64,000 nt of DNA, from the NCBI GenBank assembly GCA_964016885.1, contig OZ024742.1:13826001-13890000 (forward strand), in the 5' to 3' direction. The stretch comes from Eledone cirrhosa (lineage: Eukaryota). Within the stretch, counting starts at the first letter, position 1. The number at the start of each line of letters is the position of its first letter. The position numbers and the translations under genes are program-made. Below the pieces are notes generated by a model. That model did not search any database, was not told where the DNA came from, and saw nothing but the letters and a program-made list of their open reading frames with translations. Positions 5,423-34,100 of this stretch are shown here, piece by piece.

Positions 5423-5498
5423 ATGTCGGGTACAGCCGGAGATTGGTGTTTAATAGAAAGTGATCCGGGTGTATTTACTGAACTGATTAGAGGTTTCG
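5423..5498 (+). CDS. UCHL5: Ubiquitin C-terminal hydrolase L5 (UCH37), coding exon 1
   Basis: ATG at 5423 translates MSGTAGDWCLIESDPGVFTELIRGF(G), matching the UCHL5 N-terminal motif W(C)LxESDPGVFTELI. Ends at the donor G|GTAAGT; 76 nt, phase 1. Confidence 0.95.
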
Positions 5499-7865: not shown

Positions 7866-7904
7866 ATGTTGTCATGGTGTTGATCAAATATATCTTGTAA
7901 TGCA

Positions 7905-8323: not shown

Positions 8324-8387
8324 GTGTAAAAGGAATTCAAGTAGAAGAAATATGGAGTTTAGATTCTGACAGCTTTAAAAATTTAAA
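8324..8387 (+). CDS. UCHL5: UCHL5 coding exon 2
   Basis: Acceptor ttttctctaacatag|GT and donor AA|gtaagt. 64 nt, in frame with exon 1, translating (G)VKGIQVEEIWSLDSDSFKNL(K); QVEEIWSL is the UCHL5 motif. Confidence 0.95.
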
Positions 8388-8640: not shown

Positions 8641-8704
8641 CCTAACTCATCCCATGGACTGAGTGCTATACCACTACGGATATTGCCTTCCAGTGTTCCA
8701 CCAC

Positions 8705-8735
<31 letters not shown>

Positions 8736-9037
8736 GAATATAAACCACCCCAACCCTATTTTATATCTGAGAAATGGGCAAAATATTCAAACCCCGTTTA
8801 TAAGCTGGGGCAGCTAATCAACACATTATTTAGATGGTGTATATAAGCCAACTCAAGCGGACGTAAAATGATGATGATGATGATGATGATTCCTCGGCTT
8901 ATATTCAAGTGTATACAGTAGTAATGAGAAAGTTTGTTAAATGACTAAATCCCTCCAAAATGTTAATTAGTTTCAAAATTAATCAGACACATAGTGTATA
9001 TCAAGGGAAAATGTCAACACAATGGGAATTCTACTTA

Positions 9038-9200
9038 CCGTATATACTTGGATAGAAGCTGAGGAATATGTGACCTAAAGATCAATGGTAGAAGTTGGGG
9101 GTCAGCTTATATTTGGGGTCAATATTTTGATAGTTTTCACCAACTTCAAATTCTACATAAGTAACATTTGCATTTTTGCTCATTTCTCAGACATAAAATC
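9038..9200 (+). mobile_element. Tc1/mariner-superfamily (Tc2/pogo-like) MITE, 3' truncated
   Basis: Begins ta|CCGTATATACTTGGATAGAAGCTGAGG and is colinear with 12754-12905. An inverted copy is at ~8737-8920, ending CCTCGGCTTATATTCAAGTGTATACAG|ta. Confidence 0.7.
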
Positions 9201-9304
9201 GTGTGATTCACTTAGCCTTGATGGTGATATATCTGTATATCAGTTCTGATTTTGTAGTGTGTAACTCTTTATTCCTCCATAATTAACTGTTCTGTCTGTT
9301 GTAG

Positions 9305-9410
9305 ACCTGTCCATGGACTTATTTTCCTTTTTAAATGGGTGCCGGAGACAGAACCAGATGGATCAATTGTACGAGACAATCGGCTGAACCAAATATTCTT
9401 TGCTAAACAG
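9305..9410 (+). CDS. UCHL5: UCHL5 coding exon 3
   Basis: Acceptor tctgtctgttgtag|A and donor CAG|gtaaga. 106 nt translating (K)PVHGLIFLFKWVPETEPDGSIVRDNRLNQIFFAKQ; includes GLIFLFKW and the oxyanion-hole Gln of FAKQ. Confidence 0.96.
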
Positions 9411-9510
9411 GTAAGATTGATTATAAAACCCTTGCTAAACACGTAAGATTAATTATACAAGCCTTGTTAAACAGGTAAGATTAATTATACAACCCTTACT
9501 AAACAGATAT
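9399..9510 (+). repeat. 32-bp tandem repeat spanning the exon 3 donor
   Basis: TTGCTAAACAG|GTAAGATT(G/A)ATTATA(A/C)AA(C/G)C, with donor-equivalent positions at 9411, 9443, 9475 and 9507 (the last mutated to AT). Confidence 0.9.
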
Positions 9511-9565
9511 GGGAGAAAAATTCTAAAAAGCAAAACTTGTAACATACATACCAATTTCCAACCTA

Positions 9566-9901
9566 TGTAAGCATGGAGAATTGGATGTGCAATGTCAATG
9601 TGTGTGAATGACCAAGCATAGATGAGTTGAGAGAGAAACTGTGTATAAGAGGGATAAGTTGTAGTGTGCGGGAGAGAAGACTGATGGTATGGAGGATGAC
9701 CGATGGGTGAAGAAGTGCCAGGAAATCCTGGTGGAAGGAAGACAACGATAAAGATGGGCAGAGGTGGTGAGAGCAGACCTCAGATTACTGAAGCCAACAG
9801 AGGAGATGACAAAAGACCATGACCAGTGGAGAGATGCTGTGCTGAATAGGACCCGTCTCACCCTTGCAAGCAGGGAAAAGCGGGCGTAAAATGATGATGA
9901 T
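9566..9901 (+). mobile_element. RTE-clade LINE 3' fragment
   Basis: Degenerate translation WMCNV..ELREKLCIRGI..VRERRL..WVKKC..VEG..WAEVVRADL..TKDHDQWRDAV is typical of RTE ORF C-termini. It ends in a (GAT)n tail. Related tails occur at 8858-8890 (+), 6838-6895 (-) and 10100-10157 (-). Confidence 0.75.
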
Positions 9902-10479
9902 ATATATACAATCTGAAAATTTCATAGGCTGACTATGAAGGAGTGGTAATGCTAATGCTGTTAAATCTTGCATGCATTAAATTCAACTCTTCTTATTAAT
10001 AACTGCATTGTTTCTCTCCAGAGACTATGTAGAAAAATAAACCTCATTTGGTCATTCCATGAGAGTATCATGGTCAGCCTATGAACTTTTTTGTCATCAC
10101 TCATCATCTTCATTGGCGTTTTAACGTCCACTCTCCTTGCTAGCAAGAGTTGGACAATACTACATAGACTAAGTCAGTACTGCAGCAAAGTTACTGTTCT
10201 CTCAGGCCAGGGATTTTTGTCTCTATTATGAATGGCCAATGTTCCACCAAGCGTACAGGAGAGGTATTCATGTCTTTTACACAACTGAGGGTCCTCCCAA
10301 CCCTTGGTATATATAATTACATAGGAGCATCTTATTGTGTAATGTTACTCCAGAGACCTTTTGGAGAAACCCCATTTATTTGGCCACTTGTATTAGGGAT
10401 CATATTCTTTCAGTCATTACCCAAGATTCATGACCATAGGTAAAAAAAAAAGTAAACTCCCCACTTCTATCACAAATGA

Positions 10480-10745
10480 CCATGGGATTTGTACTTAGAA
10501 AGTTTCCCTTTCAAAGCACAAGCCTGGGCAAGGTTTGTTTGTGGAAGACTGGCAGTCGCCCATGCATACTAGTCTCCCCCTCTTCACACCACCAATGTTG
10601 TCCAAGGGAAAGGCAATGCAACTCATTTTTACAGCTGAGTAAACTGGAGTAAAGGGTCTTGCTCAAGAGCATGACACACCACCTGATTCAGGAATCGAAC
10701 TCACAACCTCACGATTGTGAATCCAATGCCCTAACCACAAGCCTT
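10480..10745 (-). mobile_element. tRNA-derived SINE (same family as 809-1003)
   Basis: Reverse complement of the family: ttgtccaagggaaag, cagctgagtaaactgg, tcttgctcaag, ggaatcgaactc (B-box) and ctaaccac (A-box region). Confidence 0.75.
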
Positions 10746-10811
10746 CATTTATTTATGTATGTAAACATATCTTATTTAAACATTTCTCTGTAAATCAAAA
10801 AAAGGTGAACG

Positions 10812-10925
10812 GCATGAAATAAAGTGTCTTACTCAAGAACACAACACATTGCCCAGTCTGGAAATCAAACTTACGACCTCACGATTATGAATCCGATGCT
10901 CTAACCACTAAACCACACGCCTTCA
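10812..10925 (-). mobile_element. SINE head fragment (same family as 809-1003)
   Basis: tgaaataaagtgtcttactcaagaacacaacac...aatcaaactt...ctaaccactaaacca is the reverse complement of the head at 809-910. Confidence 0.7.
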
Positions 10926-11003
10926 CTGACCATAGGTAAGAGTTGGCATTAAACAACGAATGGAAGATATTATTTGATTTATTTATTATTGTTTTACTGT
11001 TGT

Positions 11004-11155
11004 CTTCTGTAGGTAATTAATAATGCTGGTGTTTTCTTCTGTAGGTAATTAATAATGTTGGTGTTTTCTTCTGTAGATAATTAATAATGTTGGTGTTTTC
11101 TTCTGTAGGTAATTAATAATGCTGCTGTTTTCTTCTGTAGGTAATTAATAATGCT
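11004..11155 (+). repeat. 32-bp tandem repeat spanning the exon 4 acceptor
   Basis: TCTTCTGTAG|GTAATTAATAATG(C/T)TGGTGTTT, with AG ending at 11012, 11044, 11076, 11108 and 11140. Confidence 0.92.
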
Positions 11156-11266
11156 TGTGCAACACAGGCCATTCTCAGTATTTTACTCAACTGCAAACAT
11201 GAAGATTTAGAATTGGGAGAAACTCTGACATCTTTCAAAGAGTTTGTTCAAAACTTTGATCCAGCT
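11141..11266 (+). CDS. UCHL5: UCHL5 coding exon 4 (contains the catalytic Cys); gene incomplete in this window
   Basis: Acceptor ttttcttctgtag|GTA and donor GCT|gtaagt. 126 nt translating [42 protein letters not shown]; NACATQA is the UCH catalytic Cys motif. I found no downstream exon (expected MKGLAL...-like) in the window. Confidence 0.95.
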
Positions 11267-11462
11267 GTAAGTAGTTGTTTTTCTCTTGTTTCTAGTTGTT
11301 GTTAATGTTTAACATCCTGTACTACATGAAACTACATTAGCAAGGCATACTTAAAAAGTACAAAACAGCACTATGACAGCATCATGTTTAAAATTAAGGT
11401 ATTTAGTTTACTGTAAATTTTCACAGCTATCTGTCTACTAATAAAGATAGTTACCATATATA

Positions 11463-12751: not shown

Positions 12752-12753
12752 TA

Positions 12754-12950
12754 ATTGAATATAAGCTGAGGAATATGTGACCAAAAAATCGATGGTAATA
12801 TGGAGGTTCAGCTTATATTCAGGATTAATATTTTGATGTTTTCACCAATTTTAAATTCTATGTAAATAAGGTTTCGATTGTTGCCCATTTCTCAGACATA
12901 AAATAGTGGGGTCAGCTTATGTTTGTATCAGTTTACATTCGAGTATAATA
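12754..12950 (+). mobile_element. MITE remainder (same family as 9038-9200), split by the mariner
   Basis: aagctgaggaatatgtgacc..gatggta..tcagcttatatt..aatattttgat..ttttcaccaa..catttctcagacataaaat matches 9056-9199. Its first bases (CCATATA) are at 11454-11460, on the other side of the mariner. Confidence 0.75.
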
Positions 12951-13187: not shown

Positions 13188-16100
13188 TAGCCTCAATGTG
13201 AGACCTAACCCTAGAAGTGACCACCTGACCTAGTCTAGCCTCAATGTGAGACCTAACCCTGGTAGTGACCACCTGACCTAGTGTAAACTCAATGTGAGAC
13301 CTAACCTAAGAAGTGACCACCTGACCTAGTGTAAACTCAATGTGAGACCTCACCAAAGAAGTGACCACCTGACCTAGTCTAGCCTCAATGTGAGACCATC
13401 TAACCCAAGAAGTGACCACCTGACCTAGTGTAACCTCAATGTGAGACCTAACCCTAGAAGTGACCACCTGGCCTAGTGTAACCTCAATGTGAGACCTAAC
13501 CCTAGAAGTGACCACCTGACCTAGTCTAACCTCAATGTGAGACCTAACCCTAGAAGTGACCACCTGACCTAGTCTAGAGTCAATGTGAGACCATCTAACC
13601 CTAGAAGTGACCACCTGACCTAGTCTAGCCTCAATGTGAGACCTTCTAACCCTAGAAGTGGCCACCTGACCTAGTGTAACCTCAATGTGAGACCTAACCC
13701 TAGAAGTGACCACCTGACCTAGTCTAACCTCAATGTGAGACCTAACCCTAGAAGTGATCACCTGACCTAATCTAGCCTCAATGTGAGACTTTCTAACCCT
13801 AGAAGTGACCACCTGACCTAGTCTAGCCTCAATGTGAGCCCGTCTAACCCTAGAAGTGACCGCCTGACCAAGTCTAACCTCAATGTGAGACCTAACCTTA
13901 GAAGTGACCACCTGACCTAGTGTAACCACAATGTGAGACCTAACCCTAGAAGTGACCACCTGACCTAGTCTAACCTCAATGTGAGACCTAACCCTAGAAG
14001 TGACCACCTGACCTAGTCTAACCTCAATGTGAGACCTAACCCTATAAGTGACCACCTGACCTAATCTAGCCTCAATGTGAGACCTAACCCTAGAAGTGAC
14101 CACCTGACCTAGTGTAACCTCAATGTGAGACCTTCTAACCCTAGAAGTGACCACCTAACCTACTCTAGCCTCAATGTGAGACCTAACCCTAGAAGTGACC
14201 ACCTGACCTAGTCTAGCCTCAATGTGAGACCTAACCCTAGAAGTGACCACCTGACCTACTCTAGCCTCAATGTGAGACCTAACCCTAGAAGTGACCACCT
14301 GACCTAGTCTAGCCTCAATGTGAGACCTAACCATAGAAGTGACCACCTGACCTAGTCTAGCCTCAATGTGAGACCTAAGCCTAGAAGTGACCACCTGACC
14401 TAGTCTAGCCTCAATGTGAGACCTTCTAGCCCTGGAAGTGACCACCTGACCTAGTCTAGCCTCAATGTTAGACTATCTAACCCTAGAAGTGACCACCTGA
14501 CGTAGTATAGCCTCAATGTGAGACTTCTAACCCTAGAAGTGACCACCTGACCTAGTCTAGCCTCAATGTGAGACCTAAACCTAGAAATGACCACCTGACG
14601 TAGTGTAACCTCAATGTGAGACCTTCTAACCCAAGAAGTGACCACCTGACCTAGTCTAACCTCAATGTGAGACTTCTAACCATAGAAGTGACCACCTGAC
14701 CTTGTCTAGCCTCAATGTGAGATGATCTAACCCAAGAAGTGACCACCTGACCTAGTGTAACTTCAATGAGACCTAACCCTAGAAGTGACCACCTGACCTA
14801 GTCTGGCCTCAATGTGAGACCTAACCTTAGAAGTGACCACCTGACCTAATCTAGTCCCAATGTGAGACTATCTAACCCAAGAAGTGACCAGGTGACCTAG
14901 TCTAGCCTCAATGTGAGACTTCGAACCCTAGAAGTGACAACCTGACCTAGTGTAAACTGAATGTGAGACCTAACCCAAGAAGTGACCACCTGACCTAGTC
15001 TAGCCTCAATGTGAGACGATCTAACCCTAGAAGTGACCACCTGACCTAGTCTAGCCTCAATGTGAGATCTTCTAACCCTTGAAGTGACCACCTGACCTAG
15101 TCTAGCCTCATTGTGAGACCTAATCCAAGAAGTGACCACCTGACCTAGTCTAACCTCAATGTGAGACCTAACCTTAGCAGTGACCACCTGACCTAGTCTA
15201 GCCTCAATGTGAGACCTAACCCTAGAAGTGACCACCTGACCTAGTCTAGCTTCAATGTGAGACCTAACCCTAGAAGTGACCACCTGACTTAGTCTAGCCT
15301 CAATGTGAGACCTAACCCTAGAACTGACCACCTGAACTAGTCTAGCCTCAATGTGAGACAATCTAACCCTAGAAGTGACCACCTTACCTAGTCTAGTCTC
15401 AATGTGAGACCTAACCCTAGAAGTGACCACCTGACCTAGTCTAGCCTCAATGTGAGACTTCTAACCCTAGAAGTGACAACCTGACCTAGTATAAACTCAA
15501 TGTGAAACCTAACCCAAGAAGTGACCACCTGACCTAGTCTGGCCTCAATGTGAGACGATCTAACCCAAGAAGTGACCACCTGACCTAGTGTAACCTCAAT
15601 GAGACCTTCTAACCCTAGAAGTGACCATCTGACCTAGTCTAGCCTCAATGTGAGACCTAACCCTAGAAGTGACCACCTGACCTCGTCTATCCATAATGTG
15701 AGACTATCTAACCCAAGAAGTGACCACCTGACCTAGTCTAGCCTCAATGTGAGACTTCTAACCCAAGAAGTGACCACATGACCTAGTGTAACCTCAATGT
15801 GAGACCCTCTAACCCTAGAAGTGACCACCTGACCTAGTCTAGCCTCAATCTGAGACCTAACCCTAGAAGTGACCACCTGACCTAGTCTAGCCTCAATGTG
15901 AGACCTAACCCTAGAAGTGACCACCTGACCTAGTCTAGCCTCAATGTGAGACCTAACCCTAAAAGTGACCACCTGACCTACTGTAAACTCAATGTGAGAC
16001 CTTCTAACCTTAGAAGTGACCACCTGACCTAGTCTAGCCTCAATGTGAGACCATCTAACCCAAGAAGTAACCACCTGACCTAGTGTAACCTCAATGTGAG

Positions 16101-19100
16101 ACCTAACACTAGCAGTGACCACCTGACCTAGTCTAGCCTCCAATGTGGGACCTTCTAACCCTAGAAGTGACCACCTGACCCAGTCTAGCCTCAATGTGAG
16201 ACCTAATCCTAGAAGTGACCACCTGACCTAGTCTAGCCTCAATGTGAGACCTAACCATAGAAGTGACCACCTGACCTAGTCTAGCCTCAATGTGAGACTA
16301 TCTAACCCTAGAAGTGACCAGCTGACCTAGTCTAGCCTCAATGTGAGACCTTCTAAACCTAGAAGTGACCACTTGACATAGTGTAACCTCAATGTGAGAC
16401 CTAACCCAAGAAGTGACCACCTGACCTAGTCTAACCTCAATGTGAGACTTCTAACCATAGAAGTGACCACCTGACTTAGTCTAGCCTCAATGTGAGACCT
16501 AACCTTAGAAGTGACCACCTGACCTAGTCTAGCCTCAATGTGAGATGATCTAACCCAAGAAGTGACCACCTGACCTAGTGTAACCTCAATGAGACCTAAC
16601 CCTAGAAGTGACCACCTGACCTAGTCTAGCCTCAATGTGAGACCTAACCTTAGAAGTGACCACCTGACCTAATCTAGTCTCAATGTGAGACTATCTAACC
16701 CAAGAAGTGACCAGGTGACCTAGTCTAGCCTCAATGTGAGACTTCGAACCCTAGAAGTGACAACCTGACCTAGTGTAAACTGAATGTGAGACCTAACCCA
16801 AAAAGTGACCACCTGACCTAGTCTAGCCTCAATGTGAGACGATCTAACCCAAGAAGTGACCACCTGACCTAGTGTAACCTCAATGAGACCTAACCCTAGA
16901 AGTGACCACCTGACCTAGTCTAGCCTCAATGTGAGATCTTCTAACCCTTGAAGTGACCACCTGACCTAGTCTAGCCTCATTGTGAGACCTAATCCAAGAA
17001 GTGACCACCTGACCTAGTCTAGTCTCAATGTGAGACCTAACCCTAGAAGTGACCACCTGACCTACTCTAGCCTCAATCTGAGACCTAACCCAAGAAGTGA
17101 CCACCTGACCTAGTGTAACCTCAATCTGAGACCTAACCCTAGAAGTGACCACCTGACCTAGTTTAGCCTCAATGTGACACCTTCAAACCCTAGAAGTGAC
17201 CACCTGACCTAGTCTAGCCTCCAATGTGCGACCTTCTAACCGTAGAAGTGACCACCTGACCTAGTCTAGCATCAATGTGAGACCTAACCCTAGAAGTGAC
17301 CACCTGACCTAGTCTAGCCTCAATGTGAGATCTTCTAACCCTTGAAGTGACCACCTGACCTAGTCTAGCCTCATTGTGAGACCTAATCCAAGAAGTGACC
17401 ACCTGACCTAGTCTAGTCTCAATGTGAGACCTAACCCTAGAAGTGACCACCTGACCTACTCTAGCCTCAATCTGAGACCTAACCCAAGAAGTGACCACCT
17501 GACCTAGTGTAACCTCAATCTGAGACCTAACCCTAGAAGTGACCACCTGACCTAGTTTAGCCTCAATGTGACACCTTCAAACCCTAGAAGTGACCACCTG
17601 ACCTAGTCTAGCCTCCAATGTGCGACCTTCTAACCCTAGAAGTGACCACCTGACCTAGTCTAGCATCAATGTGAGACCTAACCCTAGAAGTGACCACCTG
17701 ACCTAGTCTAGCCTCAATGTTAGCCCTAACCCTAGAAGTGACCACCTGACCTAGTCTAGTTTCAATGTGAGACCTAACCCTAAAAGTGACCACCTGACCT
17801 AGTCTAGCCTCAATGTGAGATCTTCTAACCCTTGGAGTGACCACCTGACCTAGTCTAGCCTCATTGTGAGACCTAATCCAAGAAGTGACCACCTGACCTA
17901 GTCTAGTCTCAATGTGAGACCTAACCCTAGAAGTGACCACCTGACCTAGTCTAGCCTCAATGTGAGACTTCTAACCCTAGAAGTGACAACCTGACCTAGT
18001 GTAAACTCAATGTGAAACCTAACCCAAGAAGTGACCACCTGACCTACTTTAGCCTCAATGTGAGACCATCTATCCCTAGAAGTGACCACCTGACCTAGTC
18101 TAGGTTCGATGTGAGACCTAACCCTAGAAGTGAACACCTGACCTAGTCTAGCCTCCAATGTGAGACCTTCTAACCCTAGAAGTGACCACCTGACCTAGTC
18201 TAGCCTCAATGTTAGACCTAACCCTAGAAGTGACCACCTGACCTAGTCTAGTTTCAATGTGAGACCTAACCCTAAAAGTGACCACCTGACCTAGTCTAGC
18301 CTCAATGTGAGACCATCTAACCCTAGAAGTGACCACCTTACCTAGTCTAGTCTCAATGTGAGACCTAACCCTAGAAGTGACCACCTGACCTAGTCTAGCC
18401 TGAATGTGAGTCGATCTAACCCAAGAAGTCACCACCTGACCTAGTGTAACCTCAATGAGACCTTCTAACCCTAGAAGTGACCATCTGACCTAGTCTAGCC
18501 TCAATGTGAGACCTAACCCTAGAAGTGACCACCTGACCTCGTCTATCCATAATGTGAGACTATCTAACCCAAGAAGTGACCACCTGACCTAGTCTAGCCT
18601 CAATGTGAGACTTCTAACCCAAGAAGTGACCACCTGACCTAGTGTAACCTCAATGTGAGACCCTCTAACCCTAGAAGTGACCACCTGACCTAGTCTAGCC
18701 TCAATGTGAGACCTAATCCTAGAAGTGACCACCTGACCTACTTTAGCCTCAATGTGAGACCTAACCCTAGAAGTGACCACCTGACCTAGTCTAGCCTCAA
18801 TGTGAGATCTTCTAACCCTTGAAGTGACCACCTGACCTAGTCTAGCCTCATTGTGAGACCTAACCCAAGAAGTGACCACCTGACCTAATCTAACCTCAAT
18901 GTGAGACCTTCTAACCTTAGCAGTGACCACCTGACTTAGTCTAGCCTCAATGTGAGACCTAACCCTAGAAGTGACCACCTGACCTAGTCTAGCCTCAATG
19001 TGAGACTAACCCTAGAAGTGACCACCTGACCTAGTCTAGCCTCAATGTGAGACCATCTAACCCTAGAAGTGACCACCTGACCTAGTCTAGGTTCGATGTG

Positions 19101-22100
19101 AGACCTAACCCTAGAAGTGACCACCTGACCTTGTCTAGCCTCCAATGTGAGACCTAACCCTAGAAGTGACCACCTGACCTAGTCTTGCCTCAATGTGAGA
19201 CCAAACCCTAGAAGTGACCACCTGACCTAGTCTAGCCTCAATGTGAGACCTAACCCTAGAAGTGACCACCTAACCTAGTCTAGTTTCAATGTGAAACCTG
19301 ACCCTAAAAGTGACCACCTGACCTAGTCTAGCCTCAATGTGAGACCATCTAACCCTAGAAGTGACCACCTTACCTAGTCTAGTCTCAATTTGAGACCTAA
19401 CCCTAGAAGTGACCACCTGACCTAGTCTAGCCTCAATGTGAGACTTCTAACCCTAGAAGTGACAACCTGACCTAGTGTAAACTCAATGTGAAACCTAACC
19501 CAAGAAGTGACCACCTGACCTAGTCTAGCCTCAATGTGAGACGATCTAACCCAAGAAGTGACCACCTGACCTAGTGTAACCTCAATGAGACCTTCTAACC
19601 CTAGAAGTGACCATCTGACCTAGTCTAGCCTCAATGTGAGACCTAACCCTAGAAGTGACCACCTGACCTCGTCTATCCATAATGTGAGACTATCTAACCC
19701 AAAAAGTGACCACCTGACCTAGTCTAGCCTCAATGTGAGACTTCTAACCCAAGAAGTGACCTAGTGTAACCTCAATGTGTGACCCTCTAACCCTAGAAGT
19801 GACCACCTGACCTAGTCTAGCCTCAATCTGAGAACTAACCCTAGAAGTGACCACCTGACCTAGTCTAGCCTCAATGTGAGACCTAACCCTAGAAGTGACC
19901 ACCTGACCTAGTCTAGCCTCAATGTGAGACCTAACCCTAGAAGTGACCACCTGACCTACTGTAAACTCAATGTGAGACCTATCCTAAGAAGTGACCACCT
20001 GACCTAGTCTAGCCTCAATGTGAGACCATCTAACCCAAGAAGTGACCACCTGACCTAGTGTAACCTCAATGTGAGACCTAACCCTAGAAGTGACCACCTG
20101 ACCTAGTCTAGCCTCAATGTGAGACTAACCCAAGAAGTGACAACCTGACCTAGTCTAGCCTCAATGTGAGACTAGCTAACCCAAGAAGTAACCACCTGAT
20201 GTTGTGTAACCTCAATGTGAGACCTAATCCTAGAAGTGACCACCTGACCTAGTCTAGCCTCAAATGAGACCTAACCCAAGAAGTGACCACCTGACCTAGT
20301 GTAACCTCAATCTGAGACCTAACCCTAGAAGTGACCACCTGACCTAGTTTAGCCTCAATGTGACACCTTCAAACCCTAGAAGTGACCACCTGACCTACTT
20401 TAGCCTCAATGTGAGACCATCTAACCCTAGAAGTGACCACCTGACCTAGTCTAGGTTCGATGTGAGACCTAACCCTAGAAGTGACCACCTGACCTTGTCT
20501 AGCCTCCAATGTGAGACCTAACCCTAGAAGTGACCACCTGACCTAGTCTTGCCTCAATGTGAGACCTAACCCTAGAAGTGACCACCTGACCTAGTCTAGC
20601 CTCAATGTGAGACCTAACCCTAGAAGTGACCACCTAACCTAGTCTAGTTTCAATGTGAAACCTGACCCTAAAAGTGACCACCTGACCTAGTCTAGCCTCA
20701 ATGTGAGACCATCTAACCCTAGAAGTGACCACCTTACCTAGTCTAGTCTCAATTTGAGACCTAACCCTAGAAGTGACCACCTGACCTAGTCTAGCCTCAA
20801 TGTGAGACTTCTAACCCTAGAAGTGACAACCTGACCTAGTGTAAACTCAATGTGAAACCTAACCCAAGAAGTGACCACCTGACCTAGCGTAACCTCAATG
20901 AGACCTTCTAACCCTAGAAGTGACCATCTGACCTAGTCTAGCCTCAATGTGAGACCTAACCCTAGAAGTGACCACCTGACCTCGTCTATCCATAATGTGA
21001 GACTATCTAACCCAAAAAGTGACCACCTGACCTAGTCTAGCCTCAATGTGAGACTTCTAACCCAAGAAGTGACCTAGTGTAACCTCAATGTGTGACCCTC
21101 TAACCCTAGAAGTGACCACCTGACCTAGTCTAGCCTCAATCTGAGACCTAACCCTAGAAGTGACCACCTGACCTAGTCTAGCCTCAATGTGAGACCTAAC
21201 CCTAGAAGTGACCACCTGACCTAGTCTAGCCTCAATGTGAGACCTAACCCTAGAAGTGACCACCTGACCTACTGTAAACTCAATGTGAGACCTATCCTAA
21301 GAAGTGACCACCTGACCTAGTCTAGCCTCAATGTGAGACCATCTAACCCAAGAAGTGACCACCTGACCTAGTGTAACCTCAATGTGAGACCTAACACTAG
21401 CAGTGACCACCTGACCTAGTCTAGCCTCCAATGTGAGACCTTCTAACCCTAGAAGTGACCACCTGACCTAGTCTAGCCTCAATGTAGACCTAACCCTAGA
21501 AGTGACCACCTGACCTAGTCTAGCCTCAATGTGAGACCTAACCATAGAAGTGACCACCTGACCTAGTCTAGCCTCAATGTGAGACCTAAGCCTAGAACTG
21601 ACCACTTGACCTAGTCTAGCCTCAATGTGAGACCTAGCCCTGGAAGTGACCACCTGACCTAGTCTAGCCTCAATGTTAGACTATCTAACCCTAGAAGTGA
21701 CCAGCTGACCTAGTCTAGCCTCAATGTGAGACTTCTAACCCTAGAAGTGACCACCTGACCTAGTCTAGCCTCAATGTGAGACTAACCCAAGAAGTGACAA
21801 CCTGACCTAGTCTAGCCTCAATGTGAGACTAGCTAACCCAAGAAGTAACCACCTGATGTAGTGTAACCTCAATGTGAGACCTAACCCTAGAAGTGACCAC
21901 CTGACCTAGTCTAGCCTCAATCTGAGACCTAACCCTAGAAGTGACCACCTGACCTAGTCTAGCCTCAATGTGAGACCTAACCCTAGAAGTGACCACCTGA
22001 CCTAGTCTAGCCTCAATGTGAGACCTAACCCTAGAAGTGACCACCTGACCTACTGTAAACTCAATGTGAGACCTATCCTAAGAAGTGACCACCTGACCTA

Positions 22101-25100
22101 GTCTAGCCTCAATGTGAGACCATCTAACCCAAGAAGTGACCACCTGACCTAGTGTAACCTCAATGTGAGACCTAACACTAGCAGTGACCACCTGACCTAG
22201 TCTAGCCTCCAATGTGAGACCTTCTAACCCTAGAAGTGACCACCTGACCTAGTCTAGCCTCAATGTAGACCTAACCCTAGAAGTGACCACCTGACCTAGT
22301 CTAGCCTCAATGTGAGACCTAACCATAGAAGTGACCACCTGACCTAGTCTAGCCTCAATGTGAGACCTAAGCCTAGAACTGACCACTTGACCTAGTCTAG
22401 CCTCAATGTGAGACCTAGCCCTGGAAGTGACCACCTGACCTAGTCTAGCCTCAATGTGAGACTAGCTAACCCAAGAAGTAACCACCTGATGTAGTGTAAC
22501 CTCAATGTGAGACCTATCCCTAGAAGTGACCACCTGACCTAGTCTAGCCTCAATCTGAGACCTAACCCATGAAGTGACCACCTGACCTAGTGTAACCTCA
22601 ATCTGAGACCTAACCCTAGTAGTGACCACCTGACCTAGTTTAGCCTCAATGTGACACCTTCAAACCCTAGAAGTGACCACCTGACCTACTTTAGCCTCAA
22701 TGTGAGACCGTCTAACCCTAGAAGTGACCACCTGACCTTGTCTAGCCTCCAATGTGAGACCTAACCATAGAAGTGACCACCTGACCTAGTCTAGCCTCCA
22801 ATGTGAGACCTTCTAACCCTAGAAGTGACCACCTGACCTAGTCTAGCATCAATGTGAGACCTAACCCTAGAAGTGACCACCTGACCTAGTCTAGCCTCAA
22901 TGTTAGCCCTAACCCTAGAAGTGACCACCTGACCTAGTCTAGTTTCAATGTGAGACCTAACCCTAAAAGTGACCACCTGACCTAGTCTAGCCTCAATGTG
23001 AGATCTTCTAACCCTTGAAGTGACCACCTGACCTAGTCTAGCCTCATTGTGAGACCTAATCCAAGAAGTGACCACCTGACCTAGTCTAGTCTCAATGTGA
23101 GACCTAACCCTAGAACTGACCACCTGACCTAGTCTAGCCTCAATGTGAGACTTCTAACCCTAGAAGTGACAACCTGACCTAGTGTAAACTCAATGTGAAA
23201 CCTAACCCAAGAAGTGACCACCTGACCTACTTTAGCCTCAATGTGAGACCATCTATCCCTAGAAGTGACCACCTGACCTAGTCTAGGTTCGATGTGAGAC
23301 CTAACCCTAGAAGTGACCACCTGACCTAGTCTAGCCTCCAATGTGAGACCTTCTAACCCTAGAAGTGACCACCTGACCTAGTCTAGCCTCAATGTTAGAC
23401 CTAACCCTAGAAGTGACCACCTGACCTAGTCTAGCCTCAATGTGAGACCATCTAACCCTAGAAGTGACCACCTTACCTAGTCTAGCCTCAATGTGAGACC
23501 ATCTAACCCTAGAAGTGACCACCTTACCTAGTCTAGTCTCAATGTGAGACCTAACCCTAGAAGTGACCACCTGACCTAGTCTAGCCTGAATGTGAGTCGA
23601 TCTAACCCAAGAAGTCACCACCTGACCTAGTGTAACCTCAATGAGACCTTCTAACCCTAGAAGTGACCATCTGACCTAGTCTAGCCTCAATGTGAGACCT
23701 AACCCTAGAAGTGACCACCTGACCTCGTCTATCCATAATGTGAGACTATCTAACCCAAGAAGTGACCACCTGACCTAGTCTAGCCTCAATGTGAGACTTC
23801 TAACCCAAGAAGTGACCACCTGACCTAGTGTAACCTCAATGTGAGACCCTCTAACCCTAGAAGTGACCACCTGACCTAGTCTAGCCTCAATGTGAGACCT
23901 AAACCTAGAAGTGACCACCTGACATAATCTAGCCTCAATGTGAGACCTAACCCTAGAAGTGACCACCTGACCTAGTCTAGCCTCAATGTGAGATCTTCTA
24001 ACCCTTGAAGTGACCACCTGACCTAGTCTAGCCTCATTGTGAGACCTAACCCAAGAAGTGACCACCTGACCTAATCTAACCTCAATGTGAGACCTTCTAA
24101 CCTTAGCAGTGACCACCTGACTTAGTCTAGCCTCAATGTGAGACCTAACCCTAGAAGTGACCACCTGACCTAGTCTAGCCTCAATGTGAGACTAACCCAA
24201 GAAGTGACAACCTGACCTAGTCTAGCCTCAATGTGAGACTAGCTAAGCCAAGAAGTAACCACCTGATGTAGTGTAACCTCAATGTGAGACCTAACCCTAG
24301 AAGTGACCACCTGATCTAGTCTAGCCTCAATCTGAGACCTAACCCTAGAAGTGACCACCTGACCTAGTTTAGCCTCAATGTGACACCTTCAAACCCTAGA
24401 TGTGACCATCTGACCTACTTTAGCCTCAATGTGAGACCATCTAACCCTAGAAGTGACCACCTGACCTAGTCTAGGTTCGATGTGAGACCTAACCCTAGAA
24501 GTGACCACCTGACCTTGTCTAGCCTCCAATGTGAGACCTAACCCTAGAAGTGACCATCTGACCTCGTCTATCCATAATGTGAGACTCTAACCCAAGAAGT
24601 GACCACCTGACCTAGTCTAGCCTCAATGTGAGACCCTCTAACCCTAGAAGTGACCACCTGACCTAGTCTAGCCTCAATGTGAGACCTAACCCTAGAAGTG
24701 ACCACCTGACCTAATCTAGCCTCAATGTGAGACCTAACCCTAGAAGTGACCACCTGACCTAGTCTAGCCTCAATGTGAGACTAACCCAAGAAGTGACAAC
24801 CTGACCTAGTCTAGCCTCAATGTGAGACTAGCTAACCCAAGAAGTAACCACCTGATGTAGTGTAACCTCAATGTGAGACCTAACCCTAGAAGTGACCACC
24901 TGACCTAGTCTAGCCTCAAATGAGACCTAACCCAAGAAGTGACCACCTGACCTAGTGTAACCTCAATCTGAGACCTAACCCTAGAAGTGACCACCTGACC
25001 TAGTTTAGCCTCAATGTGACACCTTCAAACCCTAGAAGTGACCACCTGACCTACTTTAGCCTCAATGTGAGACCATCTAACCCTAGAAGTGACCACCTGA

Positions 25101-28100
25101 CCTAGTCTAGGTTCGATGTGAGACCTAACCCTAGAAGTGACCACCTGACCTTGTCTAGCCTCCAATGTGAGACCTAACCCTAGAAGTGACCACCTGACCT
25201 AGTCTTGCCTCAATGTGAGACCATCTAACCCTAGAAGTGACCACCTGACCTAGTCTAGCCTCAATGTGAGACCATCTAACCCTAGAAGTGACCACCTTAA
25301 CTAATCTAGTCTCAATGTGAGACCTAACCCTAGAAGTGACCACCTGACCTAGTCTAGCCTCAATGTGAGACTTCTAACCCTAGAAGTGACAACCTGACCT
25401 AGTGTAAACTCAATGTGAAACCTAACCCAAGAAGTGACCACCTGACCTAGTCTAGCCTCAATGTGAGACGATCTAACCCAAGAAGTGACCACCTGACCTA
25501 GTGTAACCTCAATGAGACCTTCTAACCCTAGAAGTGACCATCTGACCTAGTCTAGCCTCAATGTGAGACCTAACCCTAGAAGTGACCACCTGACCTCGTC
25601 TATCCATAATGTGAGACTATCTAACCCAAAAAGTGACCACCTGACCTAGTCTAGCCTCAATGTGAGACTTCTAACACAAGAAGTGACCACGTGACCTAGT
25701 GTAACCTCAATGTGTGACTCTCTAACCCTAGAAGTGACCACCTGACCTAGTCTAGCCTCAATCTGAGACCTAACCCTAGAAGTGACCACCTGACCTAGTC
25801 TAGCCTCAATGTGAGACCTAACCCTAGAAGTGACCACCTGACCTAGTCTAGCCTCAATGTGAGACCTAACCCTAGAAATGACCACCTGACCTACTGTAAA
25901 CTCAATGTGAGACCTATCCTAAGAAGTGACCACCTGACCTAGTCTAGCCTCAATGTGAGACCATCTAACCCAAGAAGTGACCACCTGACCTAGTGTAACC
26001 TCAATGTGAGACCTAACACTAGCAGTGACCACCTGACCTAGTCTAGCCTCCAATGTGAGACCTAACCCTAGAAGTGACCACCTGACCTAGTCTAGCCTCA
26101 ATGTGAGACCTAATCCTAGAAGTGACCACCTGACCTAGTCTAGCCTCAATGTAGACCTAACCCTAGAAGTGACCACCTGACCTAGTCTAGCCTCAATGTA
26201 AGACCTAACCATAGATGTGACCACCTGACCTAGTCTAGCCTCAATGTTAGACTATCTAACCCTAGAAGTGACCAGCTGACCTAGTCTAGCCTCAATGTGA
26301 GACTTCTAACCCTAGAAGTGACCACCTGACCTAGTCTAGCCTCAATGTGAGACTAACCCAAGAAGTGACAACCTGACCTAGTCTAGCCTCAATGTGAGAC
26401 TAGCTAACCCAAGAAGTAACCACCTGATGTAGTGTAACCTCAATGTGAGACCTAACCCTAGAAGTGACCACCTGACCTAGTCTAGCCTCAATCTGAGACC
26501 TAACCCAAGAAGTGACCACCTGACCTAGTGTAACCTCAATCTGAGACCTAACCCTAGAAGTGACCACCTAACCTAGTTTAGCCTCAATGTGACACCTTCA
26601 AACCCTAGAAGTGACCACCTGACCTACTTTAGCCTCAATGTGAGACCGTCTAACCCTAGAAGTGACCACCTGACCTAGTCTAGGTTCGATGTGAGACCTA
26701 ACCCTAGAAGTGACCACCTGACCTTGTCTAGCCTCCAATGTGAGACCTAACCCTAGAAGTGACCACCTGACCTAGTCTAGCCTCCAATGTGAGACCTAAC
26801 CCTAGAAGTGACCACCTGACCTAGTCTAGCATCAATGTGAGACCTAACCCTAGAAGTGACCACCTGACCTAGTCTAGCCTCAATGTTAGCCCTAACCCTA
26901 GAAGTGACCACCTGACCTAGTCTAGTTTCAATGTGAGACCTAACCCTAAAAGTGACCACCTGACCTAGTCTAGCCTCAATGTGAGATCTTCTAACCCTTG
27001 AAGTGACCACCTGACCTAGTCTAGCCTCATTGTGAGACCTAATCCAAGAAGTGACCACCTGACCTAGTCTAGTCTCAATGTGAGACCTAACCCTAGAAGT
27101 GACCACCTGACCTAGTCTAGCCTCAATGTGAGACTTCTAACCCTAGAAGTGACAACCTGACCTAGTGTAAACTCAATGTGAAACCTAACCCAAGGAGTGA
27201 CCACCTGACCTACTTTAGCCTCAATGTGAGACCATCTATCCCTAGAAGTGACCACCTGACCTAGTCTAGGTTCGATGTGAGACCTAACCCTAGAAGTGAC
27301 CACCTGACCTAGTCTAGCCTCCAATGTGAGACCTTCTAACCCTAGAAGTGACCACCTGACCTAGTCTAGCCTCAATGTTAGACCTGACCCTAAAAGTGAC
27401 CACCTGACCTAGTCTAGCCTCAATGTGAGACCATCTAACCCTAGAAGTGACCACCTTACCTAGTCTAGCCTCAATGTGAGACCATCTAACCCTAGAAGTG
27501 ACCACCTGACCTAGTCTAGGTTCGATGTGAGACCTAACCCTAGAAGTGACCACCTGACCTAGTCTAGCCTCCAATGTGAGACCTTCTAACCCTAGAAGTG
27601 ACCACCTGACCTAGTCTAGCCTCAATGTTAGACCTAACCCTAGAAGTGACCACCTGACCTAGTCTAGCCTCAATGTGAGACCATCTAACCCTAGAAGTGA
27701 CCACCTTACCTAGTCTAGCCTCAATGTGAGACCATCTAACCCTAGAAGTGACCACCTTACCTAGTCTAGTCTCAATGTGAGACCTAACCCTAGAAGTGAC
27801 CACCTGACCTAGTCTAGCCTGAATGTGAGTCGATCTAACCCAAGAAGTCACCACCTGACCTAGTGTAACCTCAATGAGACCTTCTAACCCTAGATGTGAC
27901 CATCTGACCTAGTCTAGCCTCAATGTGAGACCTAACCCTAGAAGTGACCACCTGACCTCGTCTATCCATAATGTGAGACTATCTAACCCAAGAAGTGACC
28001 ACCTGACCTAGTCTAGCCTCAATGTGAGACTTCTAACCCAAGAAGTGACCACCTGACCTAGTGTAACCTCAATGTGAGACCCTCTAACCCTAGAAGTGAC

Positions 28101-31100
28101 CACCTGACCTAGTCTAGCCTCAATGTGAGACCTAAACCTAGAAGTGACCACCTGACCTAATCTAGCCTCAATGTGAGACCTAACCCTAGAAGTAACCACC
28201 TGACCTAGTCTAGCCTCAATGTGAGATCTTCTAACCCTTGAAGTGACCACCTGACCTAGTCTAGCCTCATTGTGAGACCTAACCCAAGAAGTGACCACCT
28301 GACCTAATCTAACCTCAATGTGAGACCTTCTAACCTTAGCAGTGACCACCTGACTTAGTCTAGCCTCAATGTGAGACCTAACCCTAGAAGTGACCACCTG
28401 ACCTAGTCTAGCCTCAATGTGAGACTAACCCAAGAAGTGACAACCTGACCTAGTCTAGCCTCAATGTGAGACTAGCTAAGCCAAGAAGTAACCACCTGAT
28501 GTAGTGTAACCTCAATGTGAGACCTAACCCTAGAAGTGACCACCTGATCTAGTCTAGCCTCAATCTGAGACCTAACCCTAGAAGTGACCACCTGACCTAG
28601 TTTAGCCTCAATGTGACACCTTCAAACCCTAGATGTGACCATCTGACCTACTTTAGCCTCAATGTGAGACCATCTAACCCTAGAAGTGACCACCTGACCT
28701 AGTCTAGGTTCGATGTGAGACCTAACCCTAGAAGTGACCACCTGACCTTGTCTAGCCTCCAATGTGAGACCTAACCCTAGAAGTGACCACCTGACCTCGT
28801 CTATCCATAATGTGAGACTCTAACCCAAGAAGTGACCACCTGACCTAGTCTAGCCTCAATGTGAGACTTCTAACCCAAGAAGTGACCAGCTGACCTAGTC
28901 TAGCCTCAATGTGAGACTTCTAACCCTAGAAGTGACCACCTGACCTAGTCTAGCCTCAATGTGAGACTAACCCAAGAAGTGACAACCTGACCTAGTCTAG
29001 CCTCAATGTGAGACTAGCTAACCCAAGAAGTAACCACCTGATGTAGTGTAACCTCAATGTGAGACCTAACCCTAGAAGTGACCACCTGACCTAGTCTAGC
29101 CTCAATCTGAGACCTAACCCTAGAAGTGACCACCTGACCTAGTCTAGCCTCAATGTGAGACCTAACCCTAGAAGTGACCACCTGACCTAGTCTAGCCTCA
29201 ATGTGAGACCTAACCCTAGAAGTGACCACCTGACCTACTGTAAACTCAATGTGAGACCTATCCTAAGAAGTGACCACCTGACCTAGTCTAGCCTCAATGT
29301 GAGACCATCTAACCCAAGAAGTGACCACCTGACCTAGTGTAACCTCAATGTGAGACCTAACACTAGCAGTGACCACCTGACCTAGTCTAGCCTCCAATGT
29401 GAGACCTTCTAACCCTAGAAGTGACCACCTGACCTAGTCTAGCCTCAATGTAGACCTAACCCTAGAAGTGACCACCTGACCTAGTCTAGCCTCAATGTGA
29501 GACCTAACCATAGAAGTGACCACCTGACCTAGTCTAGCCTCAATGTGAGACCTAAGCCTAGAACTGACCACTTGACCTAGTCTAGCCTCAATGTGAGACC
29601 TAGCCCTGGAAGTGACCACCTGACCTAGTCTAGCCTCAATGTTAGACTATCTAACCCTAGAAGTGACCAGCTGACCTAGTCTAGCCTCAATGTGAGACTT
29701 CTAACCCTAGAAGTGACCACCTGACCTAGTCTAGCCTCAATGTGAGACTAACCCAAGAAGTGACAACCTGACCTAGTCTAGCCTCAATGTGAGACTAGCT
29801 AACCCAAGAAGTAACCACCTGATGTAGTGTAACCTCAATGTGAGACCTATCCCTAGAAGTGACCACCTGACCTAGTCTAGCCTCAATCTGAGACCTAACC
29901 CATGAAGTGACCACCTGACCTAGTGTAACCTCAATCTGAGACCTAACCCTAGTAGTGACCACCTGACCTAGTTTAGCCTCAATGTGACACCTTCAAACCC
30001 TAGAAGTGACCACCTGACCTACTTTAGCCTCAATGTGAGACCGTCTAACCCTAGAAGTGACCACCTGACCTTGTCTAGCCTCCAATGTGAGACCTAACCA
30101 TAGAAGTGACCACCTGACCTAGTCTAGCCTCCAATGTGAGACCTTCTAACCCTAGAAGTGACCACCTGACCTAGTCTAGCATCAATGTGAGACCTAACCC
30201 TAGAAGTGACCACCTGACCTAGTCTAGCCTCAATGTTAGCCCTAACCCTAGAAGTGACCACCTGACCTAGTCTAGTTTCAATGTGAGACCTAACCCTAAA
30301 AGTGACCACCTGACCTAGTCTAGCCTCAATGTGAGATCTTCTAACCCTTGAAGTGACCACCTGACCTAGTCTAGCCTCATTGTGAGACCTAATCCAAGAA
30401 GTGACCACCTGACCTAGTCTAGTCTCAATGTGAGACCTAACCCTAGAACTGACCACCTGACCTAGTCTAGCCTCAATGTGAGACTTCTAACCCTAGAAGT
30501 GACAACCTGACCTAGTGTAAACTCAATGTGAAACCTAACCCAAGAAGTGACCACCTGACCTACTTTAGCCTCAATGTGAGACCATCTATCCCTAGAAGTG
30601 ACCACCTGACCTAGTCTAGGTTCGATGTGAGACCTAACCCTAGAAGTGACCACCTGACCTAGTCTAGCCTCCAATGTGAGACCTTCTAACCCTAGAAGTG
30701 ACCACCTGACCTAGTCTAGCCTCAATGTTAGACCTAACCCTAGAAGTGACCACCTGACCTAGTCTAGCCTCAATGTGAGACCATCTAACCCTAGAAGTGA
30801 CCACCTTACCTAGTCTAGCCTCAATGTGAGACCATCTAACCCTAGAAGTGACCACCTTACCTAGTCTAGTCTCAATGTGAGACCTAACCCTAGAAGTGAC
30901 CACCTGACCTAGTCTAGCCTGAATGTGAGTCGATCTAACCCAAGAAGTCACCACCTGACCTAGTGTAACCTCAATGAGACCTTCTAACCCTAGAAGTGAC
31001 CATCTGACCTAGTCTAGCCTCAATGTGAGACCTAACCCTAGAAGTGACCACCTGACCTCGTCTATCCATAATGTGAGACTATCTAACCCAAGAAGTGACC

Positions 31101-34100
31101 ACCTGACCTAGTCTAGCCTCAATGTGAGACCTAAACCTAGAAGTGACCACCTGACATAATCTAGCCTCAATGTGAGACCTAACCCTAGAAGTGACCACCT
31201 GACCTAGTCTAGCCTCAATGTGAGATCTTCTAACCCTTGAAGTGACCACCTGACCTAGTCTAGCCTCATTGTGAGACCTAACCCAAGAAGTGACCACCTG
31301 ACCTAATCTAACCTCAATGTGAGACCTTCTAACCTTAGCAGTGACCACCTGACTTAGTCTAGCCTCAATGTGAGACCTAACCCTAGAAGTGACCACCTGA
31401 CCTAGTCTAGCCTCAATGTGAGACTAACCCAAGAAGTGACAACCTGACCTAGTCTAGCCTCAATGTGAGACTAGCTAAGCCAAGAAGTAACCACCTGATG
31501 TAGTGTAACCTCAATGTGAGACCTAACCCTAGAAGTGACCACCTGATCTAGTCTAGCCTCAATCTGAGACCTAACCCTAGAAGTGACCACCTAACCTAGT
31601 TTAGCCTCAATGTGACACCTTCAAACCCTAGATGTGACCATCTGACCTACTTTAGCCTCAATGTGAGACCATCTAACCCTAGAAGTGACCACCTGACCTA
31701 GTCTAGGTTCGATGTGAGACCTAACCCTAGAAGTGACCACCTGACCTTGTCTAGCCTCCAATGTGAGACCTAACCCTAGAAGTGACCATCTGACCTCGTC
31801 TATCCATAATGTGAGACTCTAACCCAAGAAGTGACCACCTGACCTAGTCTAGCCTCAATGTGAGACTTCTAACCCAAGAAGTGACCACCTGACCTAGTGT
31901 AACCTCAATGTGAGACCCTCTAACCCTAGAAGTGACCACCTGACCTAGTCTAGCCTCAATGTGAGACTAACCCAAGAAGTGACAACCTGATCTAGTCTAG
32001 CCTCAATGTGAGACTAGCTAACCCAAGAAGTAACCACCTGATGTAGTGTAACCTCAATGTGAGACCTAACCCTAGAAGTGACCACCTGACCTAGTCTAGC
32101 CTCAAATGAGACCTAACCCAAGAAGTGACCACCTGACCTAGTGTAACCTCAATCTGAGACCTAACCCTAGAAGTGACCACCTGACCTAGTTTAGCCTCAA
32201 TGTGACACCTTCAAACCCTAGAAGTGACCACCTGACCTACTTTAGCCTCAATGTGAGACCATCTAACCCTAGACGTGACCACCTGACCTAGTCTAGGTTC
32301 GATGTGAGACCTAACCCTAGAAGTGACCACCTGACCTTGTCTAGCCTCCAATGTGAGACCTAACCCTAGAAGTGACCACCTGACCTAGTCTTGCCTCAAT
32401 GTGAGACCATCTAACCCTAGAAGTGACCACCTGACCTAGTCTAGCCTCAATGTGAGACCATCTAACCCTAGAAGTGACCACCTTAACTAATCTAGTCTCA
32501 ATGTGAGACCTAACCCTAGAAGTGACCACCTGACCTAGTCTAGCCTCAATGTGAGACTTCTAACCCTAGAAGTGACAACCTGACCTAGTGTAAACTCAAT
32601 GTGAAACCTAACCCAAGAAGTGACCACCTGACCTAGTCTAGCCTCAATGTGAGACGATCTAACCCAAGAAGTGACCACCTGACCTAGTGTAACCTCAATG
32701 AGACCTTCTAACCCTAGAAGTGACCATCTGACCTAGTCTAGCCTCAATGTGAGACCTAACCCTAGAAGTGACCACCTGACCTCGTCTATCCATAATGTGA
32801 GACTATCTAACCCAAAAAGTGACCACCTGACCTAGTCTAGCCTCAATGTGAGACTTCTAACACAAGAAGTGACCACGTGACCTAGTGTAACCTCAATGTG
32901 TGACCCTCTAACCCTAGAAGTGACCACCTGACCTAGTCTAGCCTCAATCTGAGACCTAACCCTAGAAGTGACCACCTGACCTAGTCTAGCCTCAATGTGA
33001 GACCTAACCCTAGAAGTGACCACCTGACCTAGTCTAGCCTCAATGTGAGACCTAACCCTAGAAATGACCACCTGACCTACTGTAAACTCAATGTGAGACC
33101 TATCCTAAGAAGTGACCACCTGACCTAGTCTAGCCTCAATGTGAGACCATCTAACCCAAGAAGTGACCACCTGACCTAGTGTAACCTCAATGTGAGACCT
33201 AACACTAGCAGTGACCACCTGACCTAGTCTAGCCTCCAATGTGAGACCTTCTAACCCTAGAAGTGACCACCTGACCTAGTCTAGCCTCAATGTGAGACCT
33301 AATCCTAGAAGTGACCACCTGACCTAGTCTAGCCTCAATGTAGACCTAACCCTAGAAGTGACCACCTGACCTAGTCTAGCCTCAATGTGAGACCTAACCA
33401 TAGAAGTGACCACCTGACCTAGTCTAGCCTCAATGTTAGACTATCTAACCCTAGAAGTGACCAGCTGACCTAGTCTAGCCTCAATGTGAGACTTCTAACC
33501 CTAGAAGTGACCACCTGACCTAGTCTAGCCTCAATGTGAGACTAACCCAAGAAGTGACAACCTGACCTAGTCTAGCCTCAATGTGAGACTAGCTAACCCA
33601 AGAAGTAACCACTTGATGTAGTGTAACCTCAATGTGAGACCTAACCCTAGAAGTGACCACCTGACCTAGTCTAGCCTCAATCTGAGACCTAACCCAAGAA
33701 GTGACCACCTGACCTAGTGTAACCTCAATCTGAGACCTAACCCTAGAAGTGACCACCTGACCTAGTTTAGCCTCAATGTGACACCTTCAAACCCTAGAAG
33801 TGACCACCTGACCTACTTTAGCCTCAATGTGAGACCGTCTAACCCTAGAAGTGACCACCTGACCTAGTCTAGGTTCGATGTGAGACCTAACCCTAGAAGT
33901 GACCACCTGACCTTGTCTAGCCTCCAATGTGAGACCTAACCCTAGAAGTGACCACCTGACCTAGTCTAGCCTCCAATGTGAGACCTTCTAACCCTAGAAG
34001 TGACCACCTGACCTAGTCTAGCATCAATGTGAGACCTAACCCTAGAAGTGACCACCTGACCTAGTCTAGCCTCAATGTTAGCCCTAACCCTAGAAGTGAC

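What the first reader, a model, noticed from the sequence alone, without database searches (positions are those of the whole stretch)
11004..11155. Five tandem copies of the exon 4 acceptor; only the last is productive, and most are AG|GT ratchet-like sites
Seen: five near-identical polypyrimidine+TAG acceptors lie 32 bp apart. Splicing to any of the first four gives (V/I)INNxxVFFCR* with an immediate stop before the catalytic Cys, so only the most distal AG (11140) yields enzyme. Four of the five are followed by GTAATT, so joining to exon 3 (..CAG) recreates a donor CAG|GTAATT. Established: recursive splicing uses AG|GT sites. Inference: mis-splicing at 11012 or 11044 could be rescued by re-splicing the remaining 128 or 96 nt, or the array could act as a copy-number-tunable poison switch.
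Basis: partly seen in the sequence, partly recalled or inferred. Interest (0 to 1): 0.7.

Follow-up and report, generated by a model that had tools for sequence, protein, structure and literature searches.

The report
Splice-acceptor minisatellite in octopus UCHL5
A 32-base piece spanning an intron end and the start of exon 4 of an octopus UCHL5 gene is repeated five times, and two other splice sites of the same gene are repeated too; this is likely a tolerated repeat of a kind known from lancelets and humans, with the cell probably using only the copy next to the exon, though no RNA was available to show it.

Summary
Observation confirmed; interpretation mostly not supported. The gene is a single-locus octopus-type UCHL5 (317 aa). 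Five TAG acceptors lie 32 bp apart (11012-11140). The four upstream ones give a 93-aa product lacking Cys88; only 11140 keeps the frame. The array is a minisatellite straddling the intron 3/exon 4 boundary, the anatomy of amphioxus 'mirages' and human CBS 844ins68, where splicing is reported to stay normal. AG|GT needs no ratchet explanation: it is the conserved Gln|Val junction copied along, 54 of 223 sampled acceptors here have it, the intron is only 1.73 kb, and one copy has lost the GT. Only two of four decoys could be re-spliced to the right site. No RNA run was listed, so site use is untested. The scan noted similar arrays before on other DNA of this genome.

The parts
5423..5498 (+). 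UCHL5 coding exon 1 (ATG at 5423)
8324..8387 (+). UCHL5 exon 2
9305..9410 (+). UCHL5 exon 3, ends in the Gln82 codon (phase 0 intron)
9400..9506 (+). Donor-straddling 32-bp array, 3.3 copies (11 nt exon + 21 nt intron): true donor 9410, weak CAC|GT copy 9442, intact copy 9474, dead copy 9506; use of either extra donor gives a stop at codon 94
   Evidence: DNA contigs 9135-9609 without difference in 3 of 3 runs
9411..11140 (+). Intron 3, 1,730 nt, with a 32-bp array at each end
10998..11155 (+). Acceptor-straddling 32-bp minisatellite (about 16 nt intron end + 15 nt exon 4 start): AG ends 11012, 11044, 11076, 11108 (poison) and 11140 (productive)
11113..11117 (+). Branch-point-like TTAAT (A at 11116, -25 from the productive AG), supplied by the exon-derived half of the unit; the same motif lies at -25 of the sites 11044, 11076 and 11108
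   Evidence: motif scan; use not shown
11141..11266 (+). UCHL5 exon 4, VINNAC with Cys88
13188..64000 (.). 48-bp satellite filling most of intron 4 (326,399 nt; exon 5 starts at G000:C3:14163666)

Best explanation
The array is a minisatellite that copies the intron 3/exon 4 boundary of UCHL5 five times; it likely arose by local tandem duplication and is likely tolerated because the spliceosome would pick the copy that touches the intact exon and remove the other four with the intron. Shown: the unit is half intron end, half exon start; the copies differ by single stepwise changes; only the last AG keeps the frame. Inferred: a slip between the exon start and the pyrimidine tract made the first copy and unequal exchange or slippage added more. 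Each new unit brings its own branch-like TTAAT at -25 and a 30-nt AG-free zone, so the last unit is a complete acceptor. Choice is likely set by position (definition of exon 4 from its donor and full exon body), not by motif strength. Rare use of an upstream AG would give a stop 122-218 nt before the next junction and would be predicted to be cleared by nonsense-mediated decay. AG|GT is a by-product of the Gln|Val junction.
For: Same anatomy as amphioxus globin BflGb6 mirages (3' end of intron plus 5' part of exon, 3-6 units, many with AG/GT), where RT-PCR suggested regular splicing (PMC3087553 passages; PMC3902484 passage). Human CBS 844ins68 uses the distal copy (PMC2630376 passage). F7 intron 7 uses only the exon-adjacent donor (PMC1557585). 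The productive AG scores 9.0 (25th percentile) and the outermost decoy 10.5 (40th), so strength does not single it out. No structure hides the decoys (z=0.32). Two more straddling arrays in the same gene are donors, with no ratchet logic. The gene's introns are repeat-rich: 125 of 3,200 random intron positions pass the same detector, so 2 more among 19 sites is no excess (P=0.17). The frame is intact, 317 aa, 2 differences from the O. vulgaris/sinensis protein, and it is the only UCHL5-like locus found.
Against: Which AG is used was not observed in this organism. In 448 called splice sites of kinase, myosin, kinesin and chaperonin exons the detector found 0 arrays (1 at a relaxed threshold, 1 more doubtful by TRF) against 115 of 5,940 random intron positions (P=0.0003; 0.005 with one hit). 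That suggests such arrays are usually selected against and so not free of cost. UCHL5 has 2 of 19 further sites against 0-2 of 448 (P=0.002-0.009). Both ends of intron 3 share period 32, which two random arrays share with probability 0.023 (242 arrays). Every decoy has a branch-like motif and a score within the range of real acceptors (8th-40th percentile).
Confidence: 0.8

Rival explanations
1. Leaky poison array: upstream acceptors (and the extra donors) take a sizeable share of splicing, decay removes those transcripts, and copy number tunes UCHL5 dose between alleles or tissues.
For: All four decoys are complete acceptors by motif, with stops 122-218 nt before the next junction. Straddling arrays look depleted genome-wide, which implies a cost. 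Mirage copy number differs between haplotypes in amphioxus.
Against: Studied analogues splice normally. No sign that the signals are better kept than the rest of the unit: three changes separate the four units and one hits the GT. No allele with another copy number was seen in the one sample laid (weak).
Confidence: 0.12
2. Recursive rescue: a first splice to 11012 or 11044 regenerates CAG|GTAATT and a second splice removes the remaining 128 or 96 nt.
For: The regenerated donor scores 9.3 (58th percentile) and GTAATT opens 11 of 231 called introns. Introns of 93 and 95 nt occur among 58 called donor-acceptor pairs, so 96 and 128 nt are splicable lengths. Fortuitous recursive sites in short fly introns exist (PMC8184009).
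Against: GT is explained by the Val codon and is common (54 of 223). Only 2 of 4 decoys are rescuable, and re-splicing could equally land on 11076 or 11108, which are dead ends. The exon junction complex represses regenerated donors in fly and human. The intron is short. In the 326-kb intron 4, where stepwise splicing would help, 90.8 kb examined held no acceptor-like site on the sense strand.
Confidence: 0.05
3. Assembly artefact: the true gene has one acceptor.
For: Tandem repeats are a known source of assembly error (recalled). No listed contig spans the whole array.
Against: Copies differ stepwise. Contigs built independently of the assembly break and loop where the multi-copy array predicts, at about single-copy depth.
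Confidence: 0.03

Closest known systems
Amphioxus 'mirage' minisatellites (globin BflGb6 and BflGb9, Adh3, troponin C, PGBD5); PMC3087553 and PMC3902484, passages read
   Same: Tandem copies of an intron end plus exon start; both 5' and 3' boundaries affected; unit within the 10-72 bp range quoted for Adh3; many units carry AG/GT; end units diverge
   Different: Here in an octopus housekeeping gene; three arrays in one gene with two at the ends of one intron; copy-number variation and normal splicing not shown here
Human CBS 844ins68 (PMC2630376, passages read; the primary paper was not held)
   Same: Duplicated intron/exon junction; the distal copy yields normal mRNA
   Different: One 68-bp duplication, not five 32-bp copies
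Human F7 intron 7 37-bp VNTR (PMC1557585, abstract and Discussion read)
   Same: Matches the two donor arrays: first unit spans the exon end, later identical donors stay silent
   Different: Concerns donors, not acceptors; tested in mammalian cells
Recursive splice sites / RS-exons (PMC8184009 abstract and one section; PMC6224609 abstract)
   Same: AG|GT juxtaposition and a regenerated donor after the first splice
   Different: Short intron, AG|GT explained by coding sequence, no conservation shown, one copy lacks GT, no lariat evidence

Membership tests
UCHL5/UCH37 | Peptidase_C12 domain plus C-terminal extension, close match to UCHL5 | tested here: met
   PF01088 match; 317-aa frame with 2 differences from P0121; P0121 matches human UCHL5 at E=1.7e-145 and BAP1 only at 2.6e-61
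UCHL5/UCH37 | Cys88 in QVINNAC (catalytic role recalled) | tested here: met
   Cys at 88 in the joined frame, aligned to human position 88
Mirage minisatellite | Tandem repeat whose unit spans an exon-intron boundary | tested here: met
   Period 32, 15 nt on the exon side
Mirage minisatellite | Extra units lie in the intron and repeat the splice signal | tested here: met
Mirage minisatellite | Regular splicing is undisturbed | not testable with these tools
   No RNA holder listed
Mirage minisatellite | Copy number varies between alleles | tested here: inconclusive
   One sample, contigs only, no second allele seen
Recursive (ratchet) splice site | Acceptor directly followed by a donor motif | tested here: met
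   3 of 4 decoys and the true site; CAG|GTAATT at the 58th percentile
Recursive (ratchet) splice site | Typically in a very long intron | tested here: not met
   1,730 nt against a fly mean of about 50 kb; short-intron exceptions are known
Recursive (ratchet) splice site | Hybrid motif conserved beyond coding need | tested here: not met
   GT is the Val codon; lost in copy c3; other octopus genomes could not be searched
Recursive (ratchet) splice site | Intermediate junctions and lariats | not testable with these tools
   No RNA holder listed
Regulated poison splicing (AS-NMD) | Alternative site gives a stop well before the last junction (50-55 nt rule recalled) | tested here: met
   122-218 nt before the exon 4/5 junction
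Regulated poison splicing (AS-NMD) | Measurable, regulated and conserved use | not testable with these tools
   No RNA and no second cephalopod genome in the tools

The most novel reading that the evidence does not exclude
UCHL5 is a mirage hot spot whose three splice-site arrays act as heritable dials: the two 32-bp arrays at the ends of intron 3 send a copy-number-dependent share of transcripts to decay, part of it rescued by re-splicing from the regenerated donor, and the 17 in-frame exon 7 donors can add 20-residue hydrophobic repeats to the enzyme. The equal period at both ends of one intron would point to a duplication process tied to splice sites.
Probability: 0.12. Interest if true: 0.62.

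Novelty: new member of a known kind. Interest (0 to 1): 0.22.

Why it matters
As a tolerated mirage it is a small addition: it extends a repeat class described in amphioxus and human to a cephalopod housekeeping gene, and it warns that gene models and short-read junction calls here can pick the wrong AG, since two of the decoys share their first 15 bases with the real exon. Its use is as a natural test bed: five near-identical acceptors with their own branch-like motifs, plus 3 and 17 donors in the same gene, allow a direct test of position-based splice-site choice in a mollusc. If decoy use proved substantial and tied to copy number, it would be a repeat-length dial on a proteasome deubiquitinase.

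Tried and rejected
Sequencing-run search for 8300-11300, kind RNA: no RNA holder listed; no evidence either way. Search for a truncated octopus product: none among 14 of 14 cluster members or 65 short homologues, and no poison-type tail among 195 fetched proteins; uninformative, because such messages may be degraded and the relatives may lack the array. Hairpin masking of decoys: z=0.32. Pairing between donor and acceptor arrays: -63.3 against -60.8 +/- 11.1 kcal/mol for 200 shuffled-unit arrays; rejected. Period 32 as a genome-wide mode: 1 of 242 arrays; rejected, so the shared period stays unexplained. De novo search of 160 kb around the gene for more straddling arrays: 17 splice-like hits, none with a partner site and open frame; neighbouring genes were not identified, so a regional rate was not measured. 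Two earlier detector versions were dropped: the first had no positive control and the second missed the exon 3 donor array; the version used finds all three UCHL5 arrays but misses the degenerate myosin case unless relaxed. Searches translated in a wrong frame and were corrected. 10935-11026 had no contig cover. Romano 2002 and Canestro 2002 were not held and are known here only through citing papers.

Full report
Gene. The window is G000:C3:13826001-13890000 in a 3.0-Gb genome. Exons at 5423-5498, 8324-8387, 9305-9410 and 11141-11266 join into an open frame. Seven more exons lie from C3:14163666 on, giving 317 aa with 2 differences from the Octopus vulgaris/sinensis UCHL5 protein P0121. P0121 matches human UCHL5 structures at E=1.7e-145 with Cys88 in register (the catalytic role of Cys88 is recalled). 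Searches with PF01088 and P0002 found no second UCHL5-like locus; the other matches, on C1 and at C3:32.7 Mb, are weaker or partial.

Observation. Confirmed as written: five TAG acceptors 32 bp apart, four followed by GTAATT, and a 93-aa product without Cys88 from each of the four upstream sites. The stops lie 218, 186, 154 and 122 nt before the exon 4/5 junction. The unit is about 16 nt of intron end, one junction base and 15 nt of exon start. The four full units differ by one base each along c4-c1-c2-c3. Contigs of three DNA runs of one sample break at the repeated 31-mers predicted from the assembly and give a 62-letter loop at about single-copy depth. The array is therefore real with at least four acceptors; the A-starting copy was not seen separately.

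The donor of the same intron is a 32-bp array of 3.3 copies (9400-9506); either extra donor gives a stop at codon 94. The exon 7 donor is a 60-bp array of 16.9 copies at 98% identity (C3:14165815-14166827). All 17 donors score alike (7.1) and the repeat reads in frame as 20-residue units. So 3 of the 20 splice sites of this gene are straddled by arrays, and two of the three are donors, for which a ratchet reading does not apply.

How common is this? I took exon matches of four Pfam families in G000 and three UCH paralogue rows. A weight matrix trained on them called 224 acceptors and 231 donors; some calls are surely wrong. 448 had enough flank. The detector found 0 of 448, against 115 of 5,940 random intron positions (P=0.0003). 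One degenerate myosin donor array (24 bp) appears at a relaxed threshold and one more doubtful case by TRF, so the rate is 0-2 of 448 (upper 95% bound 0.8-1.6%). The intron background includes repeats carried in by transposons, so the depletion is suggestive only. Leaving out the site that prompted the finding, UCHL5 has 2 of 19 (P=0.002-0.009 against the survey), but its own introns give 125 of 3,200 (3.9%), and against that 2 of 19 is ordinary (P=0.17). The neighbourhood is repeat-rich (TRF cover 5-92% per 10 kb in 16 stretches; survey mean 13%). Only 1 of 242 complex arrays had period 32 and two random arrays share a period with probability 0.023, so the equal period at both ends of intron 3 is a mild oddity that I cannot explain.

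Mechanism. Scores of the five acceptors are 10.5, 7.8, 7.0, 8.8 and 9.0 (40th, 14th, 8th, 21st, 25th percentile). The productive one is not the strongest. Each inner unit carries TTAAT with its A at -25 and a 30-nt AG-free zone, so the last unit is self-sufficient. No fold hides the decoys. The inference is that position next to the intact exon decides, as in the analogues below, and that leaks would be removed by nonsense-mediated decay (rule recalled, not tested in octopus).

The ratchet reading. For: CAG|GTAATT is a fair donor (58th percentile; 11 of 231 called donors start so), introns of 93 and 95 nt occur, and fortuitous recursive sites in short introns are known in flies. Against: exon 4 must start with a Val codon (Gln-Val in 130 of 132 homologues), so normal mRNA has the same junction; 54 of 223 acceptors are followed by GT; intron 3 is 1,730 nt; c3 has lost GT and 11108 leaves 32 nt, so two decoys cannot be rescued and are also traps for a second splice; the exon junction complex represses regenerated donors (PMC8184009 abstract and section 10; PMC6224609 abstract). 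In 90.8 kb of the satellite-filled intron 4 there was no acceptor-like site on the sense strand.

Known kinds. Amphioxus mirages are tandem copies of intron/exon boundaries; BflGb6 has this exact layout with 6 and 3 units on two haplotypes, and RT-PCR suggested regular splicing (PMC3087553, passages; PMC3902484, passage). I was led to this paper by the scan's earlier notes. Human CBS 844ins68 uses the distal copy (PMC2630376, passages; it calls the sites donors although the junction is intron 7/exon 8). The F7 intron 7 VNTR uses only the first donor (PMC1557585, abstract and Discussion). The array meets the structural definition of a mirage; undisturbed splicing and length variation could not be tested. 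A search for 'UCHL5' with 'octopus' gave one listing, a cuttlefish transcriptome that I did not read; searches listed no title on mirages in cephalopods. The library lacks most subscription papers, and I opened no supplements. The scan itself noted several such arrays on other DNA of this genome; these notes are unchecked.

Verdict. A real feature, a new member of a known kind. Tolerated mirage 0.80, leaky poison dial 0.12, recursive rescue 0.05, artefact 0.03. Interest 0.22. The open point is RNA: nothing here shows which site is used.

Noticed in passing
G000:C3:14165815-14166827 (L238:3816-4828): Exon 7 donor repeated 17 times in 60-bp units, 98% alike; the repeat is in frame and open, so use of a later donor would add 20-residue hydrophobic units to the enzyme instead of a stop.
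   Followed up: partly
window 13188-64000 and on to about G000:C3:14163590: Intron 4 is 326,399 nt; the window part and 4 of 4 sampled 10-kb stretches are a 48-bp satellite. AGGT occurs 39 times on the sense strand and 4,865 times on the other in 90.8 kb, with no sense acceptor-like site. A giant satellite intron in a housekeeping gene.
   Followed up: partly
window about 11461-12755: By eye, a mariner-like DNA transposon with terminal inverted repeats and a broken transposase frame at the start of intron 4; not tested with a tool.
   Followed up: no
window 7652-7865 and 7904-8214: Two further minisatellites (56 bp x 3.9; 46-48 bp units with an AC tract) in intron 1, ending about 110 nt before exon 2; they do not straddle a splice site.
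   Followed up: no
L104, G000:C3:145259478-145259693: A myosin exon whose donor is straddled by an old, degenerate 24-bp array of about three copies.
   Followed up: partly
L178, G000:C6:99955519-99955749: A 51-bp two-copy repeat that may begin 5 nt inside a myosin exon end; weak donor call, doubtful.
   Followed up: partly
L137, L140, L141: Near-identical kinesin exons on C18 and twice on contig C1636, each with a 120-bp array (2.3 to 4.3 copies) ending about 26 nt before the match; recent duplicates or unplaced haplotypes.
   Followed up: no
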